The notes beneath the pieces were generated by a model that was given only the letters and a program-made list of their open reading frames with translations, had not been told where the DNA came from and did not search any database. Positions 1-55,354 of a stretch of 64,000 nt of DNA are shown here, piece after piece. Within the stretch, counting starts at the first letter, position 1, and the number at the start of each line of letters is the position of its first letter. The DNA is from Eledone cirrhosa (taxonomy: Eukaryota): positions 332,816,001 to 332,880,000 of the forward strand of contig OZ024741.1 of NCBI GenBank assembly GCA_964016885.1, read 5' to 3'. The position numbers and the translations under genes are program-made.

Positions 1-211
1 AGAGGTTGAAGCCTTTAAAGAAGGCTGTGAGTTCTTTTCTGAACCTGTCACAAGCACGTGGGCCGCACTTAGTCATGGTCAAAAGACCATCAACACGGTA
101 CAAACCACCGCCCATGTTGGGGAATTCTTCCTTGATAGAGAAAAGAAGGAAAAGGCCGATAAGATCAGTAACCTCCGCAGAATCGCTGGCGCCCATACTC
201 ACGTCGAATGG
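1..211 (-). pseudogene. Penelope-like element reverse transcriptase fragment (runs off the window start)
   Basis: Manual minus-strand translation gives PFDVSMGASDSAEVTDLIGLFLL...GGLYRVDGLL...DRFRKELTAFFKGFNL. This matches the PLE RT pattern FDVxMGxxDxAExxxLxG...GLYRDDGL, with the first catalytic D changed to V. Confidence 0.8.
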
Positions 212-386
212 GATACTATTAGATATATATCTATATACATATGTATATATGTATATATGTATATATATATATACTTGTTTACCAGCAAATTGAATTGCCA
301 CCTGTCATATAATATCCCCCCTCTTCTTCCTTTCTTACAACTAATATAAGTACTTCAATTTTTCTCATTTTTTCCAATTCATCCAA

Positions 387-13429: not shown

Positions 13430-14732
13430 CAGGGTGTGGACGATATTTGTTCGTAATTTTCAACTGCTAATTATATGCAAATTTTTTTTACTTCCGTTGT
13501 CACTCTTGTCTTCATAAAAACAGTGACTATATTTCCATTATTTATTGTCAGAATAATTGATTATGAATAATTTTGAACCTCCAAATTTGTGGAAGAGATA
13601 CGGAGTTCTTCTTGGAATCCACGCCAGGAGGACAAATAATGAAATTTCAGACTTTCTCAGCGTCAGCAGAAGAATGGTGGAAAAGGTCAGAAAGGAATTG
13701 GAAGATTCAGGATTCGACTACGAAGCAACATCAGAGAGGAAAACACATGATCGACGATCTGACGCCCTCAGAACACCCGAGTTCGTCGCTGAAGTTCAGG
13801 ATATCATCAGCAATGAACCTAGCAAGTCGATGCGTGCCATTGCAAGGGAGAAAGGCGTAGATGAAAAGCTCATTAGGCTGGTGGTACATGAAGACATTCG
13901 CTACGTTTCATACAAGATGAGGAAAGGACAATTTCTGTCAAAGGCGATGCAAGAAAAGCGACTGAAGCACGCAAAGAAGCTGATCAACAAGTTGAAACAC
14001 CCACTGGAACCAGACATGCTGTGGTTTTTCTCCAACGAGAAAAACTTCTGCCAACACCAGAAGATCAACTCCCAGAACAACAGGTGGCTCACTGTCTCAC
14101 CCAAAGACGTGCCCAGAGTCATGCAGACAAAGTTTCCAGCGACAACATTGGTCTTAGGTGTCGTCAGCAGTGAAGGTGACGTCATGCCACCACACTTCTT
14201 CCCTGAGGGCCTCAAGCTGAACACTGATGGCTACATCCGCGTTCTGAGCAAGGTAGTAAATCCCTGGATCGACCAGGTAGGCCGTACGTGTGGCAGCAAG
14301 ACTCAGCACCCTGCCATACCAGCCAAAAGACCTGGCTGTCAGAGAACTTCGTCGACCACACTTCACCTGACATCTGGCCTCCCAGCTCGCCTGACTGCAA
14401 CCCCCTCGACTTCTTTGTGTGGGGCACAGTGGAACGAGACACCAACAGATCTAGCTGCAATATGAAAGACGATCTGAAGGCCAGGATCACAAGTGCCTTT
14501 AGGGGCCTAAGTCGGGGGACAGTGACGAAGGCCTGTAGCTGGTTCCGAGGCCGCCTTGAGGCCGTCATCAAAGCCGATGGCGGGTTTATCGAGTGAGATC
14601 GCAAGAACAAGTCATGAAGACAAACTGACCCAAGTTTGATAAATATATCTTAAAATATATCTTAAAAAATAAAACTACTGTGTTATTTTTTCCTAGACAG
14701 TAATCTTGCGAACAAATATCGTCTGCCCCCTG
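13430..14732 (+). mobile_element. Full-length Tc1/mariner-superfamily DNA transposon (probably DD37D/maT-like) with an inactivated transposase
   Basis: TA target duplication; TIRs CAGGGTGTGGACGATATTTGTTCG and its near reverse complement. ORFs 13557-14465 and 14288-14596 give an HTH, FSNEK (first catalytic D changed to N), QQDSAPCH and WPPSSPDCNPLD, with a frameshift near 14285. Confidence 0.92.
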
Positions 14733-32455: not shown

Positions 32456-32571
32456 ATTCTTGTTGTTGTTGTTGTTGTGGTGGTGGTTGTGTGATTGCTT
32501 GATGATATATATATATATATATATCATCATGTGTGTGTATATATATATATATACAGATATAGCATCATGTA

Positions 32572-32690
32572 TATATATAGGAAAAGAGTCAGGACACTGA
32601 CGGTTGAGCTCCGGCCGTTTTGACAGCTAGATCTGAGTATTGAGTACTCTGGTGCGTTATGGTCCACCTGATATCTTACCACACCCTCTT

Positions 32691-32736
<46 letters not shown>

Positions 32737-32864
32737 ATATATAACAAAGAGGGTGTGGTAAGATATCAGGTGGACCATAACGCACCAGAGTACTCAATAC
32801 TCGGATCTAGCTGTCGAAACGGCCGGAGCTCAGCCGTTGGGGTCCTGATTCTTTTCCTATATAT
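32572..32864. repeat. Inverted repeat with ~120-bp arms around a (TA)n(TG)n spacer, containing the 3' half of a hammerhead-like motif
   Basis: Arms 32579-32697 and 32737-32859; GAAA CGGC...GCCG TT at about 32816-32838. Related pieces lie at 10313-10360, 13187-13360 and 36244-36290. Confidence 0.8.
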
Positions 32865-33099
32865 GTATCATCATCATCATCATCATCAACGTTTAACGTC
32901 CGTGTTCCACGCTTGCATGGGTTTGGACGGGGGTAGTCCCACTTGAGGCAAGAGTGATTGTCTTGCTCGCATAGGACTGTCTATATATATATATATATAT
33001 ATATACACATGATGATATATATATATATATACGCACACACACAACACATACATACCCACACAAATATATGCAGATACGTACATATTTACTCATATATTC

Positions 33100-45890: not shown

Positions 45891-45942
<52 letters not shown>

Positions 45943-46062
45943 GAGGTGAGTTTTATTGTAGCACAATAAAGCAATGCAAATATCAGATAAGTAGCACTCT
46001 ACAGTTTGTAGGACTGGAGTATAAATAATATAAGATCAAAAGATGGTTAAAAGAGTTCCAAG

Positions 46063-46133
46063 TATTTTATTATGCGCATTTCAAAAACAAATATCATCAT
46101 GGGATGATATCTGCGTTCACATCAGATAAAATA
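46063..46133 (-). ncRNA. Hammerhead motif in the PLE-A left arm (A9 mutated)
   Basis: Minus strand reads TATTTTAT CTGATGT gaacGCAGATATCATC ccat GATGATATTTGTtttt GAAA TGCGCA TA ATAAAATA. Confidence 0.75.
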
Positions 46134-48964
46134 GGGAGACATGATATGAAGCTTAAAAAACACTTGTGAATAGTGAAGTTTTAAATCAACATATGAAAAA
46201 TAAATTAAGATTGATGTATGAGATTGGGAAAAAGTGAGGTGAGGTTGGAAAAGGTAAGGAAGAGGAAGAGATGAGAGTAAAGGATGGTGGGGGGAGGAGT
46301 ATAAGAAGGAAGGATGAGAGAGGAGGAGAGATGGGTGATAGAGAGAGAGAGATAGCCTTTATAACTGAGAAAAAATATATATTGTCTCACAGAGAGAAAT
46401 TGAAAAGCCGTTGGAAGATAATAGATAATTTAGAATATTTTGAAATTAAAAGTTAATGAGGTTTATGCATGAAGAAAAAAGAATTAAGAATAGTATTAAA
46501 TTACGGTTTCTATAACCTTAATATTATTAAGAACATTATACGTGATCTCTTTAAGCAACATAACCTTAAAATTGAATTTGATAACAACGTCAAACTAGCT
46601 AACTTCTTGGATATATCCCTTAATCTTGACACTGGCCTATATTACCCTTACCATAAAAACAATGAGAATCTAAATTATGTTAATTTTAAATTTAACCACC
46701 CCACTAACATTAAAAATGCTATAGTCAGTAATATTGGAAAAAGAATCTCAAACCTATCCTCTAATAAAGATATCTTCGATGCTAACGCCAATTACTATAA
46801 TAATGCGCTTTCTAAAGCCGGCTATCCTGATAAAATTAAATACAGTAAAGAAACCAATCCTAGAAGGTCTTACAGTAAAATAATTAATTATGAACATTCC
46901 AATAACTTAAATAAAAGACCTAGATACAAAAATATAATCTGGTATAATGCTCCTTTCTCTATTTCTATTAATAATAATATTCCTAAACTATTCTTTAGGG
47001 CCTTAGATAAATGCTTCCCTCCCTCACATATCTATAGTAAAATCTTTAACAAACATTCAATAAAATTTTCTTATTCCACCTCTTCCAACATCTCTAGCAT
47101 TATCTCTAAACACAACAATAAAATATTAAATAATAAATCACATCCTTCCAACACTGAGCGTCATAATAATAGCAGTAGTACTCCCGACTTCATTGTTAAC
47201 TCTAGGCTAGATTCTGTAAACTTAAATACGACGTCAAACGTAACTTCGTTGAATGTTCATAATACCAATCTAAATCAGAAACTATTATTCCTATCGTAAA
47301 TAACTTCTCCAATCCAATTCCTCCTATAAATAACAATAGGTCACTTGTTAATAACTCTGTTAATTTCTCTAATCGTAATTGCAATTGCCCTGTTAGAACT
47401 AAATGTCCTCTTAATAACCACTGTCTTGATAAAAACTTAGTCTATGAATGTAAAGTTATAACTGATACCAATTCCTTTACCTCTTTCGGTTCCACCTCCA
47501 CTTCCTTCAAAGCTAGATTTTATAATCACAATTCGTATTTTAGATACCAACTTAAAAGAACTAACACGGCACTCTCGGAACTCATATGGTCCTTGAAAGA
47601 CAAAAATATTAACTATAACATCTCTTGGAGGAAGGTTTGTTCTGCCTTTCCTTACCTGAATTCTTCCCTATCCAGAACATGCAATCTCTGCCTAGCCGAG
47701 AAATTTACCATTATATCTAATTTCAATTCTATAATAAATAGACGCACGGATTTATTTTCTCTCTGCTTGCATAAATTCCACAGAACATTCCATAAAGTAT
47801 ACAGCTAATATCTAATACCTTACTAGTTTAAAATCCTTTTTCTCAAAGGCTTATATATCTTTTACAAATATACCCATCTTTCTACCTTATTTCAATATTA
47901 TTTATTAAATATTATATAATACAATTTACTCATTCTATATCATTCCTCTTTATCATTTTCCTTTCTTCTTTTTTTCTTTTTAATTTCTAACCTCTAATCT
48001 GTACTTTTTCTTCCCAACTACTTCTCTATTCTTATTATTACTCACCACAACATTATCCATTCTGCCATCTTTCCTCATATCTCTGGCCATAAAAATTATT
48101 TTTTTAATACATTATAGTATTACCATTAGAAGTCCTTCGTAAACATATAATTTTTTGACGTTAGATTTTTTTTCTTCCTTAAATGTTTCTTATTTCCTCC
48201 ATCCTTTCATGCTCGTTTTAAACTACTACTTAATTTGACTTTTACATATTACAATACATAAAAACAAACTTAAACCCTAACTAATTTCTTTTAATATATT
48301 ATATTATTACCATTAGAAAATATTTCGTAACTTTTTGATGTTAGATATTTTCTTCCTTAAATATTCTTTTCTTCTTTCCTTCCGCGCTCATTTTAAAACA
48401 AAATATTTACGTACACATATTACATTACATAAAAACAAACTTAAACCCTAACTAATTCCTCTAAATTCATGACTCATTCATTCTTCTCCCTCTTTTTACA
48501 TTATATCCTTAATAACATTAATATTTTTATTTTAATAATACATATTAATAAATTCTTTTCCTCGCACATATTATTAAACCCTTCAATATACAAACCTTAA
48601 TTTAATACTATTCTTAATTCCTTTTTCTTCATGCATAAACCTCATTAACTTTTAATTTCAAAATCTTTTAAATTATCTATTATCTTCCAACGGCTTTTCA
48701 ATTTCTCTCTGTGAGACAATATATATATTTTTCTCAGTTGTAAAGGCACTCTCACTCTCTCCATCACCCATCTCTCCTCTTCTCTCATCCTTCCTTCTTA
48801 TACTCCTCCCCCCACCATCCTTTACTCTCATCTCTTCCTCTTCCTTACCTTTTCCAACCCCCCCCCCCTCACTGTTTCCCAATCTCATACATCAATCTTA
48901 ATTTATTTTTCATATGTTGATTTAAAACTTCACTATTCACAAGTGTTTTTTAAGCTTCATATCA

Positions 48965-49030
48965 TTATCTGATGAGAACGCAGATATCATCCCATGATGA
49001 TATTTGTTTTTGAAATGCGCATAACAAAAT
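48965..49030 (+). ncRNA. Hammerhead motif in the PLE-A right arm (core intact, helix I damaged)
   Basis: CTGATGA at 48969-48975, long helix II, GAAA at 49012-49015, TGCGCA TA. Confidence 0.75.
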
Positions 49031-49369
49031 ACTTGGAACTCTTTTAACCATCTTTTGATCTTATATTATATTATATATATACAGTTCAAGAGTAACCAAT
49101 CTTAAAGAGAGAGATGGAGATAGGAGAGGAGAGATTGGTGAATTAGTTAGAAGCCAAAGCGTAAAGGCATGTGCTCAATGTACAATATGCAGTGGAAGGC
49201 AGCTAGGTAGCTGGGTTCATGCAGAGGTTAGGTGCACAGAGCTGGAAATATTCATTAGTTAAGCAAAACAAGACCACAAATTTCACAAGGAAGACATTAT
49301 TAAAAGATTGTCAACATATTTTAGTTTGATGTAAGGAATGTAAAGAATAATAATAATAATATTAATAAT

Positions 49370-49745
49370 AATTGTTTCTATTTTAGGCACAAGGCCAGCA
49401 ATTCACCAGTACATTATTGGTACTTTATTTTATCGACCCCGTAAGGATGAAAGGCAAAGTTAACCTCGGCGGGATTTGAACTCAGATCATAAAAGGACGT
49501 AACTCTATGCTTCAAAGCATGGTGTCCGACTCTCTACCGATACTGCCATAATATTGTTTCTACTATTGGCACAAGGCCAGCAATTAACCAGTACATTACT
49601 GGTACTTTATTTTATCGACCCCGTAAGGATGAAAGGCAAAGTTAACCTCGGCGAGATTTGAACACAAAATGGCAAGGGCCGTAACTCTATGCGTCAAAGC
49701 ATGGTGTCCAACACTCTACCGATACTGCCAATCCACCGCCCTATA
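49370..49745 (-). mobile_element. Two tandem SINE family 2 copies inside the PLE-C left arm
   Basis: The reverse-complement core occurs twice and is absent from the right arm. Confidence 0.85.
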
Positions 49746-49774
49746 CTGCCATAATATTAATAATAATAATGTCC

Positions 49775-49893
49775 GTTTACAATTGTTTCGCTACTCCATA
49801 TAATATTTCTGGATCAAAGGATTCAAGATCATTATTGATCTGGTTCAGTTGAAAATAATTAATATAGGTAAAAATAAAGCAACTCATCGGACC
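49775..49893 (-). ncRNA. Hammerhead motif (C4 variant) in the PLE-C left arm
   Basis: Reverse complement of 51097-51215, again with CCGATGA. Confidence 0.6.
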
Positions 49894-51096
49894 TTCAAAA
49901 GGAATATAAATTAAAATAAGCAAAGAATGTTACATAAATGTAATGTTCCATATATTGGTATTTCACTATGGTGTCCTGGGTATATCTATTGTCTGCCAGA
50001 GTCAAGCAGTATTCTTCTGTCGAGGCTGCATTGTGTGAGATCTGCCTATGGGTAACAAGATAGCCGCCAATGGACATATTTACCTTACTAATTAGAGGGT
50101 GGTTTCAGGGGAAGTAACTCCTCGCGAGATTAGAAATTGTGGGTAGTTTATAGTTAAGTGCTAATTTTTTAATTTTTTAATTGAGAGATAATATACTTAC
50201 TCTAGTAACACACCTCCCCCATCTAATCCTTCTAGCACTGACCAACCGCTTAGGTTAAACAACCCTACTCTCACTAACCGCAGAAGTAACTGCAACTGCC
50301 GTTACCCAAATGCATGCCCACTAAATGGACATTGCCTGACACCCAATATAGTTTATAGGTGCACGGTTAAAACTGCTTCGCATACCAGCTCCTATATCGG
50401 GTCTACCTCTAACCCTTTTAAGGTACGCTATAACGCGCACTCTTTTTCCTTCCTAGACCCTAACAACAGATGTTCGACATCTCTAGCTAGGCTCATTAAA
50501 AACCTTAAATTAACCAACATTGAACACTCACTAACATGGGATATCTTGGTTAGGGCCTAACCGTTTAATGGATGAAGAAAATCTTGTGACTTCTGTCTTA
50601 CCGAAGCATATTACATAACTCTATCACGACATCTACCGATTAACTATAGAACGAAGGTAACTTTTCAACATCGAAGGGCTAATTCCTTCGCCAACAGAAT
50701 ATTTGACCCAACATAGTCATCTATCCCCATTTTTACTTGTAGCTAAGAAGTTAAATAGTTATAGCTAACTTAGATAATTATAAGTTACCTCCCGTATATT
50801 GTCTCTCAATTAAAAAATTAAAAAATTAGCACATAACTATAAACTACCGACAATTTCTAATCTCTCGAGGAGTTACTTCCCCTGAAACCCCCCTCTAATT
50901 AGTAAGGGAAATATATCCATTGGCGGCCATCTTGTTACCCATAGGCAGATCTCACACAATGCAGCCTCGACAGAAGAATACTGCTTGACTATGGCAGACA
51001 ATAGACATACCCAGGACACCATAGTGAAATACCAATATATGGAACATTACATTTATGTAACATTCTTTGCTTATTTTAATTTATATTCCTTTTGAA

Positions 51097-51215
51097 GTTC
51101 CGATGAGCTGCTCTATTTTTACCTATGTTAATTATTTTCAACTGAACCAGATCAATAATGATCTAGAATCATTTGATCCAGAAATATTATATGGAGTAGC
51201 GAAACAATTGTAAAC
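51097..51215 (+). ncRNA. Hammerhead motif (C4 variant, 94-nt helix II domain) in the PLE-C right arm
   Basis: GTT CCGATGA GCTGCTCTAT...ATGGAGTAGC GAAA CAATTG TA AAC. Confidence 0.65.
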
Positions 51216-51478
51216 GGACATTATTATTATTATTCTCTACATTCCTTACATCAAACTAAAATATGTTGACAATCTTTTAATAATGTCTTCCTTGTGAAAT
51301 TTGTGGTCTTGTTTTGCTTAACTAATGAATATATATATATATATATATATATGTAGGAGGTGAGTTTTATTGTAGTACAATAAAGCAATGCAGATATCGG
51401 ATAAGAAGCACTCTACAGTTTGTAGGACTGGAGTATACATAATATATAAGATCAAAAGATGGTTAAATGAGTTCCATG

Positions 51479-51549
51479 TATTTTATTATGCGCATTTCAA
51501 AAACAAATATCATCATGCAATAACATTTGTGTTTTCATCAGATAAAATA
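51479..51549 (-). ncRNA. Intact type I hammerhead motif in the PLE-B left arm
   Basis: Reverse complement of 55209-55279. Confidence 0.85.
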
Positions 51550-51912
51550 GGAAGACATGATATGAAGGTTAAAAACACTTGTGGATAGTGCAGTTTTAAA
51601 TCAACATATGAAAAGTAGTTTTACATTGATGTGTGATATTGGGGAAACATTTTTTCTTAGGGGTTGGGGGGTTGGAAAGGATGAAAAAAAGGAGGAGATG
51701 AGAGTAAAAAGTGGAGGGAGGGGGGAGTATAATGAGGAAGGATGAGATAGGAGGAGAGATGGGTGATAGAGAGAGAGAGATAGCTTTTATAACTGAGAAA
51801 AATATATTGTTTTACATAGAGAGGTTGAAAAACCGTTGGAAGATAATGTATAAATTAAAAGAATTTGAAAATTAACGAAGAGAAAAATAATGTAAAGTTA
51901 AGGTTTGTATAT

Positions 51913-52142
51913 TGAAGGGTTTAATAATATGTGCGATGAAAAGAAATTGTTAATATGTATTAAGAATAATATTTAAGGGTTTAATAATATGTGCGATGAA
52001 AAGAAATTGTTAATATGTATTAAGAATAATATTTAAGGGTTTAATAATATGTGCGATGGAAAGAAAATGTTAATATGTATTAAGAATAATATTTAAGGGT
52101 TTAATAATATGTGCGATGGAAAGAAAATATTGATATGTATTA
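51913..52142. repeat. 60-bp tandem repeat, about four units, in the PLE-B 3' UTR (mirrored at about 54630-54860)
   Basis: Unit AAGGGTTTAATAATATGTGCGATG(A/G)AAAGAAATTGTTAATATGTATTAAGAATAATATTT. Confidence 0.9.
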
Positions 52143-53742
52143 TTAAAAAAACCCAAAAGTAATGTAAGTAAGGATATATTGTGAGATGAGCATGAATAAG
52201 TTAGATGAAAGTGAGAAAAAAATAATGAATAGAGGATGAATAATCTAACATAAAAAAAAATGTTTATGTTTACGAAGGATTTTTTCAAGGTGATATAAAG
52301 TATTGTGTAATAATTGTTTCTATGTTAGGCACAGTGAGAAAAGGTACAGATTAGGGGTTAGAAATTAAAAGAAAAAGAAAAGGAAAAGGAAGAAAGGTTA
52401 AGTGATAAATAGGAGTGATATAGAATATAATAAATAACTTTGAAATAAGGTAGAAACATGGGTATATTTTTAAAGAAGTATATATATATATATATATGTG
52501 CCTTTGAGAAAAGGATTCTGAATTGATAAAGTTTAAGATATTAGCTGTATACTTTATGGAAAGTTCTGTGGAATTTATGCAAGCAGATAGAAAACAAGTC
52601 AGTGCGTCTATTTATTATAGAATCTAAATTAGATATAATGGTAAATTTTTCATTTAGACAGAGATTGCAAGTCTTGGATAGAGAACTGTTCAAGTATGAA
52701 GAAGCAGAGGAAACCTTTTTCCAAGAGATGTTATATTTAATATTTGTGTCTTTCAAGGACCATATGAGTTCTGAGAGAGCCGTGTTGGTTCTTTTAAGTT
52801 GGTATTTAAAAGACGAATGATGATTATAAAGACCAGCTTTAAAGGAGGTGGAAGTGGAGCCAAATAGGTGAAGGAATTGGTGTCAGTTATAACTTTACAT
52901 TCGTAGATTAAGTTTTTATCAAGACAATGGTTGTTAAGAGAATATTTATTTTTAGCAGGGCAATTGCAATTGCGATTAGAGAGATTATTAACGAGTGACC
53001 TAGTGTTATCTATAGAAGGAATTGGATTGGAGAAGTTATTTGCGATAGGAATAATAGTTTCTTGATTTAGAATAGGATTAAGAACATTTAGCGAAGTTGT
53101 GTTTGACGTTGTATTTGGGTTTGCAGAAATTAGCCTAGAGTTTACAATGACGTCGGGAGTACTATTACTATTATTATGATATTCAGTGTTGGAAGGAAGA
53201 GATTTAGTATTTAGTATTTTATTGTTGTGTTTAGAGATAATGTTGGAAATGTTGGAGGATGTTGAATAGGAACATTTTATAGTGTGTTTGTTAAATATTT
53301 TACTATAGATATGTGAGGGAGGGAAGCATTTATTTAAGGCACTAAAGAATAATTTAGGAATATTATTATTAATAGAGATGGAGAAAGGAGCATTATACCA
53401 GATTATGTTTTTGTATCTAGGTCTTTTATTAAAGTTATTGGAATGATCATGATTAATTATTCTACTGTAAGATCTTATAGAATTTGTTTCTTTATTATAT
53501 TTGATTTTATCAGGATAGCCGGCTTTAGAAAGCGCGTTATTATAGTAATTGGCGTTAGCATCGAAGATGTTTTTATTAGAAGATAGGTTAGATATTCTTT
53601 TTCCAATATTACTAACTATAGCATTCTTAATATTAGTAGGGTGGTTAGATTTAAAATTAACATAATTTAGGTTCTCATTGTTTTTATGGTAAGGGTAATA
53701 TAGGCCAGTGTCAAGATTAAGAGATACTAACTAATTTCTTGG

Positions 53743-54237
53743 ATGTATCTCTTAATCTCTTCTATAGATAACACTAGGTCACTCGTTAATAATCTCTCTA
53801 ATCGCAATTGCAATTGCCCTGCTAAAAATAAATGTCCTCTCAACAACCATTGTCTTGATAAAAACTTAATCTACGAATGTAAAGTTATAACTGACACCAA
53901 TTCCTTCACCTATTTTGGCTCCACTTCCACCTCCTTTAAAGCTGGTCTTTATAATCATCATTCGTCTTTTAAATACCAACTTAAAAGAACCAACACGGCT
54001 CTCTCAGAACTCATATGGTCCTTGAAAGACACAAATATTAAATATAACATCTCTTGGAAAAAGGTTTCCTCTGCTTCTTCATACTTGAACAGTTCTCTAT
54101 CCAAGACTTGCAATCTCTGTCTAAATGAAAAATTTACCATTATATCTAATTTAGATTCTATAATAAATAAACGCACTGACTTGTTTTCTATCTGCTTGCA
54201 TAAATTCCACAGAACTTTCCATAAAGTATACAGCTAA
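53743..54237 (+). pseudogene. PLE GIY-YIG endonuclease domain, open frame, 5' truncated
   Basis: CNCPAKNKCPLNNHCL..LIY...YFGST..FKAG..NH..SF...CNLCLNEK...CLH; the conserved Arg of FKxR is replaced by Gly. Confidence 0.85.
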
Positions 54238-55208
54238 TATCCTAAACTTTATCAATTCAGAATCCTTTTCTCAAAGGCACATATATATATATATATATAT
54301 ATACTTCTTTAAAAATATACCCATGTTTCTACCTTATTTCAAAGTTATTTATTATATTCTATATCACTCCTATTTATCACTTCCCTTTCTTCCTTTTCCT
54401 TTTCTTTTAATTTCTAACCCCTAATCTGTACCTTTTCTCACTGTGCCTAACATAGAAACAATTATTACACAATACTTTATATCACCTTGAAAAAATCCTT
54501 CGTAAACATAAACATTTTTTTTGACGTTAGATTATTCATCCTCTATTCATTATTTTTTTCTCACTTTCATCTAACTTATTCATGCTCATCTCACAATATA
54601 TCCTTACTTACATTACTTTTGGGTTTTTTTAATAATACATATCAACATTTTCTTTCCATCGCACATATTATTAAACCCTTAAATATTATTCTTAATACAT
54701 ATTAACATTTTCTTTCCATCGCACATATTATTAAACCCTTAAATATTATTCTTAATACATATTAACAATTTCTTTTCATCGCACATATTAAACCCTTAAA
54801 TATTATTCTTAATACATATTAACAATTTCTTTTCATCGCACATATTATTAAACCCTTCAATATACAAACCTTAACTTTACATTATTTTTCTCTTCGTTAA
54901 TTTTCAAATTCTTTTAATTTATACATTATCTTCCAACGGTTTTTCAACCTCTCTATGTAAAACAATATATTTTTCTCAGTTATAAAAGCTATCTCTCTCT
55001 CTCTATCACCCATCTCTCCTCCTATCTCATCCTTCCTCATTATACTCCTCCCCCTCCACTTTTTACTCTCATCTCATCCTCTTTTTCACCCCCCCCCCCC
55101 TAAAAAAATGTTTCCCCAATATCACACATCAATGTAAAACTACTTTGCATATGTTGATTGAAAACTACACTATCCACAAGTGTTTTTAACCTTCATATCA
55201 TGTCTTCC

Positions 55209-55279
55209 TATTTTATCTGATGAAAACACAAATGTTATTGCATGATGATATTTGTTTTTGAAATGCGCATAATAAAATA
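55209..55279 (+). ncRNA. Intact type I hammerhead motif in the PLE-B right arm
   Basis: TATTTTAT CTGATGA AAAcACAAATGTTATT gcat GATGATATTTGTtTTT GAAA TGCGCA TA ATAAAATA. Confidence 0.88.
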
Positions 55280-55354
55280 CATGGAACTCATTTAACCATC
55301 TTTTGATCTTATATATTATATATATATATATATATTTATATATATACAATGATA

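What the first reader, a model, noticed from the sequence alone, without database searches (positions are those of the whole stretch)
45940..55320. Cluster of three PLE insertions, each a long inverted repeat with outward-pointing ribozymes near both ends
PLE-A (arms about 490 bp), PLE-C (about 540 bp) and PLE-B (about 1570 bp) fill 9.4 kb almost back to back, bounded mostly by TA tracts. Inverted pseudo-LTRs are known for PLEs, but three in a row from at least two families indicates a hotspot. A transcript from either strand would fold into long dsRNA that includes an HHR sequence, a potential siRNA source or ADAR target (inference).
Basis: partly seen in the sequence, partly recalled or inferred. 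Interest (0 to 1): 0.7.

Follow-up and report, generated by a model that had tools for sequence, protein, structure and literature searches.

The report
Chain of three Hydra-clade Penelope insertions
Three broken copies of Penelope-type jumping genes sit end to end, each in the two-armed form usual for these families, likely because each new copy landed in the TA repeat left beside an older one; in this genome that is ordinary.

Summary
Three inverted Penelope-like (PLE) insertions abut across short (TA)n spacers: A 45940-49075, C 49082-51332, B 51353-55324. All three are 5'-truncated and lack the RT active site.

The inverted form with a one-sided tail is the family norm (43 of 45 called pairs elsewhere). 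Arms of one insertion share variants 2-3 times more than re-paired arms, so both came from one donor, likely by two priming events.

No special hotspot is needed. The genome has at least 11,700 A/B/C insertions, a third of random (TA)8+ tract sides abut some recurrent element end, and other A/B/C junctions exist. About 1 to a few tens of such triplets are expected. A weak excess of neighbours (odds 3.6, p 0.03) was not seen in a small genome-wide count.

Only B's two hammerheads are intact. Both of A's and C-left are damaged, and family C has a U4C core. Transcription, dsRNA and editing are untested, and no read bridged a junction.

This scan found the two-armed architecture before, elsewhere in this genome.

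The parts
45891..45939 (.). (TA)24 left flank
45940..46024 (-). PLE-A tail (about 84 nt, first bases of the element body), left arm only
46020..46514 (-). PLE-A left (short, inverted) arm
46071..46125 (-). Type I hammerhead-like motif, A9U core change, predicted inactive
46515..47805 (+). PLE-A remnant: RT C-terminal part, CxCx5C linker, GIY-YIG EN; one frameshift near 47280; starts after the RT YRDD motif
48587..49075 (+). PLE-A right arm, tail-less end
48969..49023 (+). Hammerhead-like motif, core intact, stem I broken
49082..49247 (-). PLE-C tail (166 nt), left arm only
49248..50196 (-). PLE-C left arm, interrupted by the SINE dimer
49361..49757 (-). tRNA-like SINE dimer inserted in the (ATT)n tract, 17-nt target duplication (SINE label from recalled A/B-box motifs; high copy number shown)
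49778..49890 (-). C hammerhead-like motif, U4C, long stem II, stem I broken
50192..50660 (+). PLE-C GIY-YIG EN remnant with stops
   Evidence: (Pfam GIY-YIG E 0.022, below cut-off)
50794..51332 (+). PLE-C right arm, tail-less end
51100..51212 (+). C hammerhead-like motif, U4C (family norm), 3-bp stem I, about 95-nt stem II, palindromic stem III
51333..51352 (.). (TA)n spacer between C and B
51353..51436 (-). PLE-B tail (84 nt), left arm only
51434..53730 (-). PLE-B long arm: RT C-terminal part and EN (frameshift near 52864), 3' UTR with 60-nt tandem
51487..51541 (-). Intact type I hammerhead-like motif with palindromic stem III
53731..53758 (+). About 30-nt RT-region filler at the B inversion junction
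   Evidence: sequence
53759..55324 (+). PLE-B right arm (EN and 3' UTR), tail-less end
55217..55271 (+). Intact type I hammerhead-like motif with palindromic stem III

Best explanation
These are three 5'-truncated Hydra-clade Penelope-like insertions joined by short TA repeats, likely laid down one after another because each insertion leaves TA tracts that are targets for the next. Each insertion was likely made when the element's endonuclease cut both strands of a (TA)n tract and its reverse transcriptase primed from both cut ends on RNA of one donor, at two fixed start sites 84 nt (A/B) or 166 nt (C) apart. The two incomplete cDNAs then joined head to head, giving outward-facing arms with a tail on one side only. 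The copies cannot move by themselves and the chain needs no function.
For: Shown: a full-length natural B copy (L102:2319-4727, 803 aa) has C-terminal EN, DKT, RLRW at the RWK place, CxCx5C, CxxC, CxH and no CCHH, the Hydra features of PMC8557442 section 11. 43 of 45 called inverted pairs in 140 ten-kb loci have one tail and one tail-less end, 2 have two tail-less ends, none has two tails; 31 further ends were unpaired. Arms of one insertion share non-majority variants: B 31 vs 11.3, A 33 vs 15.1, C 36 vs 11.2 in re-paired arms, p<=0.0005 each. In A and C the tail is on the shorter arm, so neither arm can be a copy of the other. Exact counts: 10,129 A/B tail ends next to TA, 1,643 C tails, 1,719 C short ends. 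279 of 869 random (TA)8+ tract sides start a recurrent element end, and 13 of 869 an A/B/C end. C-short to A/B-tail junctions with a spacer of at most 14 nt: 1 seen, about 1.3 expected (5.3 x 7/28). Arm divergence of 1.3% (B), 3.3% (A) and 3.8% (C) suggests separate ages. From papers: two RT start sites delimit the tail, both strands are cut and extended, and AT-rich targets are preferred, in the anole PLE in vitro (PMC11167929).
Against: A/B/C ends had an A/B/C neighbour at 5 junctions among 101 ends in anchored loci (5.2%, against 1.5% of random sides; odds 3.6, p 0.026), so some clustering beyond random TA use is possible. With the lowest estimates the expected number of A/B/C triplets is only about 0.6-2.6 (my arithmetic). 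The genome-wide junction count rests on one event. Shared variants do not separate one RNA molecule from two RNAs of one donor, or from partial gene conversion (24 of 100 shared variants were seen only at their own locus). Two-ended priming is shown in vitro only for a Poseidon element. No read bridged a junction.
Confidence: 0.85

Rival explanations
1. Homing: the enzyme prefers the ends of existing PLE copies, or this region is unusually open to insertion, so chains form faster than TA content predicts.
For: Odds 3.6 excess of A/B/C neighbours. 57 of 107 A/B/C ends face another recurrent element end, against 32% of random sides. Both sides of a random tract co-occur with odds 1.5, p 0.07. 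[quoted passage not shown]
Against: Longer tracts are more often flanked (27%, 33%, 38% by length class), a confounder. The genome-wide short-spacer count matched chance. Junction polarity varies: tail-tail 3, short-tail 1, short-short 1.
Confidence: 0.1
2. The cluster is kept as a functional source of long dsRNA (siRNA or ADAR substrate), read through from a neighbouring pLTR promoter.
For: Arms are predicted to pair over more than 500 bp. All three tails point left, so a pLTR promoter of B would fire into C and A (inference; a promoter in the pLTR is proposed in PMC11167929).
Against: The arms decay like other copies, with one-sided SINE and deletion damage. About 10^4 like insertions exist. 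Same polarity of three has a 1-in-4 chance.
Confidence: 0.04
3. Assembly artefact (chimeric fold-backs or misjoined repeats).
For: No listed contig bridged the A/C junction.
Against: Arms differ by 1-4% with private changes, a one-sided tail and a one-sided SINE. The anatomy recurs at 43 other insertions. Short-read contigs show the same TA-joined ends (table 7).
Confidence: 0.02

Closest known systems
Hydra clade of C-terminal EN+ PLEs (Craig et al. 2021, PMC8557442; includes Hydra-1_Obim)
   Same: C-terminal GIY-YIG, DKT, CxCx5C, CxxC and CxH, no CCHH, (TA)n targets, hammerhead in the repeat. RT motifs of L102 match the printed Hydra-1_Obim rows by eye.
   Different: RWK reads RWI. The B body is about 3.6 kb against 'generally <3 kb'. 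The hammerheads differ from the one listed for Hydra-1_Obim, so these are other families.
Inverted 5'-truncated PLE insertions with a one-sided tail (PMC8557442 Fig. 2 legend; PMC11167929)
   Same: Inverted copy at the 5' end, tail at one end only, two fixed ends.
   Different: Tails are 84 and 166 nt rather than 30-40 nt. The inverted form is the majority form here.
Minimal PLE hammerheads with palindromic helix III (Cervera and De la Pena 2014, PMC4209133)
   Same: Type I, palindromic stem III, dimer-dependent. Close pairs on opposite strands were already noted in Schistosoma.
   Different: Family C has U4C in 41 or more of 52 arms and a stem II of about 95 nt. U4C is known as a weakened natural viroid variant (PMC3088659).
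L1 twin priming (recalled)
   Same: Two priming events on one cut, joined head to head, often with short overlaps.
   Different: In L1 the arms copy different parts of the RNA. Here both copy the same 3' end.

Membership tests
Hydra-clade PLE | Single ORF with RT then C-terminal GIY-YIG EN | tested here: met
   L102 803-aa ORF; window remnants align at 80-93% (A, B) and 39% (C). Pfam does not detect the RT or EN of L102.
Hydra-clade PLE | DKT in place of DKG | tested here: met
   HSDKTNNLY in L102; SDKTKNLY in the broken C copy L113. This region is absent from the window copies.
Hydra-clade PLE | N-terminal RWK motif | tested here: inconclusive
   RRLRWIA in L102 (RW kept, K to I); broken by a stop in L113.
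Hydra-clade PLE | CxCx5C linker; CxxC and CxH around E/N; no CCHH | tested here: met
   A: CNCPVRTKC, CNLC, CLH. B alike. C: CNCRYPNAC, CDFC, but CxH not seen.
Hydra-clade PLE | Insertion in (TA)n | tested here: met
   Nearly all listed ends are followed by TA tracts.
Hydra-clade PLE | Canonical hammerhead in the pLTR | tested here: met
   A/B: core and stem III intact in 54 of 76 arms. C carries a U4C variant.
Hydra-clade PLE | Placement in an RT tree with reference clades | not tested
   Reference proteins were seen only as paper text; compared by eye.
Naiad/Chlamys | N-terminal EN, no canonical hammerhead | tested here: not met
   EN is C-terminal and hammerheads are present.
Neptune, Nematis, Penelope/Poseidon | CCHH motif in the EN; DKG | tested here: not met
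   No CCHH; DKT (definitions).
Active hammerhead ribozyme | Self-cleavage | not testable with these tools
   Motif match only. Monomer folds do not give the three-way junction for the A/B motifs, as expected for dimer-type motifs.

The most novel reading that the evidence does not exclude
Hydra PLEs build self-seeding chains in which each copy's pLTR promoter fires into the inverted arms of its neighbour, making some ten thousand two-armed insertions a genome-wide source of long dsRNA that silences the families and feeds ADAR editing.
Probability: 0.12. Interest if true: 0.6.

Novelty: new member of a known kind. Interest (0 to 1): 0.22.

Why it matters
As a locus it matters little: it is a tidy example of known PLE anatomy. 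Its value is as a data set. The one-tail rule, the shared variants between arms, and tails on the shorter arm give genomic support, in a second clade, for the two-start-site priming seen in vitro, and tell a bench worker which RNA ends to test. If the arms proved to be transcribed, about 10^4 such insertions would be a large dsRNA pool.

Tried and rejected
Rfam on the window and on the cluster: no hammerhead hit; the motifs were found by pattern. My first strict pattern scan returned nothing. Pfam on five window ORF pieces: one weak GIY-YIG hit. Pfam on 70 of 113 filtered window ORFs of 70 aa or more: only LINE RT/endonuclease hits, no host gene; small exons would be missed. Sequencing runs: no RNA holder listed, which is no evidence on expression. 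Laying Logan contigs: fragments too short to bridge junctions. A 93-nt own-genome search of the C end found nothing, a sensitivity failure since one search counts 1,719 such ends. Idea that the SINE in C's arm was picked up during PLE insertion or marks a different template: rejected, because SINEs at that site differ in length and target duplication, occur in both arm types, and one of six duplicated loci gained a second SINE alone (L237). Idea of one event or a duplicated haplotype: A and B are only about 85% alike and arm ages differ. Long-spacer junctions could not be counted genome-wide, so the homing test is weak. Literature searches for twin priming in Penelope (2 papers) and nested microsatellite-targeted PLEs (3 papers) listed nothing on PLE chains; listings only were seen, so this is no proof of absence.

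Full report
Observation. Self-BLAST and the repeat finder confirm three inverted repeats: A 46020-46514/48587-49075 (93%), C 49248-50196/50794-51332 (96-99%, left arm split by a 397-nt SINE dimer) and B 51434-53018/53759-55324 (97%). The 166 nt between A and C's arm are C's own tail, seen after the same end in many other C copies. So the three elements touch, separated only by TA spacers, and all three carry a tail on the left arm only.

Identity. The window holds only RT C-terminal and endonuclease remnants with frameshifts or stops, all starting after the RT YRDD motif. A natural full-length B copy elsewhere (L102, 803 aa) shows DKT, RLRW, CxCx5C, CxxC, CxH, a C-terminal EN and no CCHH. These are the features of the Hydra clade in Craig et al. 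2021 (PMC8557442; I read passages, section 11 and supplement rows), which also reports (TA)n targets and canonical hammerheads. Its RT motifs match the printed Hydra-1_Obim rows by eye; no tree was built. A and B are sister subfamilies (EN region 82% identical); C is a separate family (40-47%). The host is an animal with a 3.0-Gb genome; I did not establish which.

The inverted form is the norm. In 140 ten-kb loci (60 chosen around A, B or C hits, 80 evenly spaced; three duplicate loci left out of the count), 45 inverted pairs were called. 43 had one tail and one tail-less end, 2 had two tail-less ends, none had two tails, and 31 ends had no partner called. End positions are sharp: 78 and 95 hits at two A/B positions, 30 and 38 at two C positions (overlapping loci not merged). 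Craig et al. describe inverted 5' copies and a one-sided 30-40-bp tail. Frangieh et al. (PMC11167929; parts 1-2 of 4 read) show that an anole PLE cuts and extends both strands, prefers AT-rich DNA and starts at two RNA sites that delimit the tail.

Template. Arms of one insertion are closer to each other than to other loci (0.022 vs 0.032 for B, 14 pairs; 0.033 vs 0.051 for A, 11 pairs; 0.030 vs 0.045 for C, 16 pairs). After dropping short or distant arms they share 31, 33 and 36 non-majority variants against 11.3, 15.1 and 11.2 in re-paired arms (13, 10 and 15 pairs; p<=0.0005). 76 of the 100 shared variants also occur at other loci, and the arms still differ at 400 places. In A and C the tail sits on the shorter arm, so neither arm can be copied from the other. 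Two priming events on RNA of one donor fit best (inference). One molecule, two molecules and partial conversion are not told apart.

Is three in a row special? Exact patterns count 10,129 A/B tail ends, 1,643 C tails and 1,719 C short ends; a stricter A/B short-end pattern gives 2,467. The 80 evenly spaced stretches held 6 A/B/C insertions in 0.8 Mb, about 22,000 per genome, and dozens of other element ends adjoining TA: 279 of 869 (TA)8+ sides began a recurrent end and 13 an A/B/C end (a few counted twice). With a per-end chance of 0.7-1.5%, about 0.6-5 A/B/C triplets are expected; with the 5.2% seen in anchored loci, about 30-56 (partly my arithmetic). Other A/B/C junctions exist: five in anchored loci and three found by pattern. 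Against a plain reading, the anchored rate exceeds the random rate (odds 3.6, p 0.026). For it, the one genome-wide class I could count gave 1 junction against about 1.3 expected. Counting all TA-targeting families, 57 of 107 A/B/C ends face another recurrent element, so chains are common. Arm divergence (B 1.3%, A 3.3%, C 3.8%) suggests B arrived last.

Ribozymes. The six motifs are type I with a palindromic stem III, the dimer-dependent, weakly active kind of Cervera and De la Pena 2014 (PMC4209133; parts 1-2 of 4 read), who also noted close pairs on opposite strands. Only B's two are intact. A-left has A9U and A-right a broken stem I. Family C reads CCGAUGA in at least 41 of 52 arms with a stem II of about 95 nt; U4C is reported to lower activity while allowing viroid infectivity (PMC3088659, passages). 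In a transcript through a whole element the sense motif would pair with its antisense copy, so cleavage is predicted to be blocked. The anole hammerhead was not needed for insertion in vitro.

dsRNA. Folding the + strand of C and A gives 533 and 582 pairs over more than 500 nt; B was not folded. No RNA run was listed and no host exon was found, so transcription, small RNA and editing are open. The argument applies equally to about 10^4 like insertions.

Prior work. Earlier notes of this scan on other parts of this genome describe the same two-armed, TA-targeted Hydra architecture; none on chains was returned. The O. vulgaris repeat paper (PMC13282606, passages) and a retrozyme preprint (10.64898/2026.07.22.740005, passages; supplements closed) say nothing on such chains in the passages seen.

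Verdict. Real, explained and ordinary for this genome: new families of a known clade in a known arrangement. Interest 0.22.

Noticed in passing
window 49361-49757; L056, L070, L076, L079, L105, L109, L222, L224, L234, L242: The (ATT)n tract 7-35 nt downstream of family C's predicted cleavage site is a repeated SINE landing site: 4 of 22 arms picked by sequence upstream of the site carry independent SINEs (window arms removed, six duplicated loci counted once, L245 unclassified). The SINE favours ATTA(T) targets genome-wide.
   Followed up: partly
window 51100-51212 and family C: Family-wide U4C hammerhead-like core with an about 95-nt stem II and a 3-bp stem I, missed by Rfam.
   Followed up: partly
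L224, L236, L237, L248, L249, L250 (G000:C8 39.1-40.2 Mb): One C insertion is repeated at least six times within about 1 Mb, a local segmental or tandem duplication.
   Followed up: no
L101:6405-9425 and L119:5107-7044: Long ORFs of a different PLE-like family (1007 and 646 aa, C-terminal YIG) lie next to B and C copies.
   Followed up: no
L102:2319-4727: Uninterrupted 803-aa Hydra-clade ORF that Pfam does not recognise as RT or GIY-YIG.
   Followed up: partly
L055, L052, L135, L157, L037: In several insertions one arm is only part of the tail (about 40-100 nt), showing that the tail-primed copy can stop very early.
   Followed up: no
window 32570-32867: A 298-nt palindrome around a TA/TG tract whose arms match one of the commonest TA-adjacent element ends in the genome.
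   Followed up: no
window 2-346 and 13557-14462: Another Hydra-like RT fragment at the window start and a 302-aa ORF that looks like a mariner-type transposase (recalled; no Pfam hit at E 0.001).
   Followed up: no
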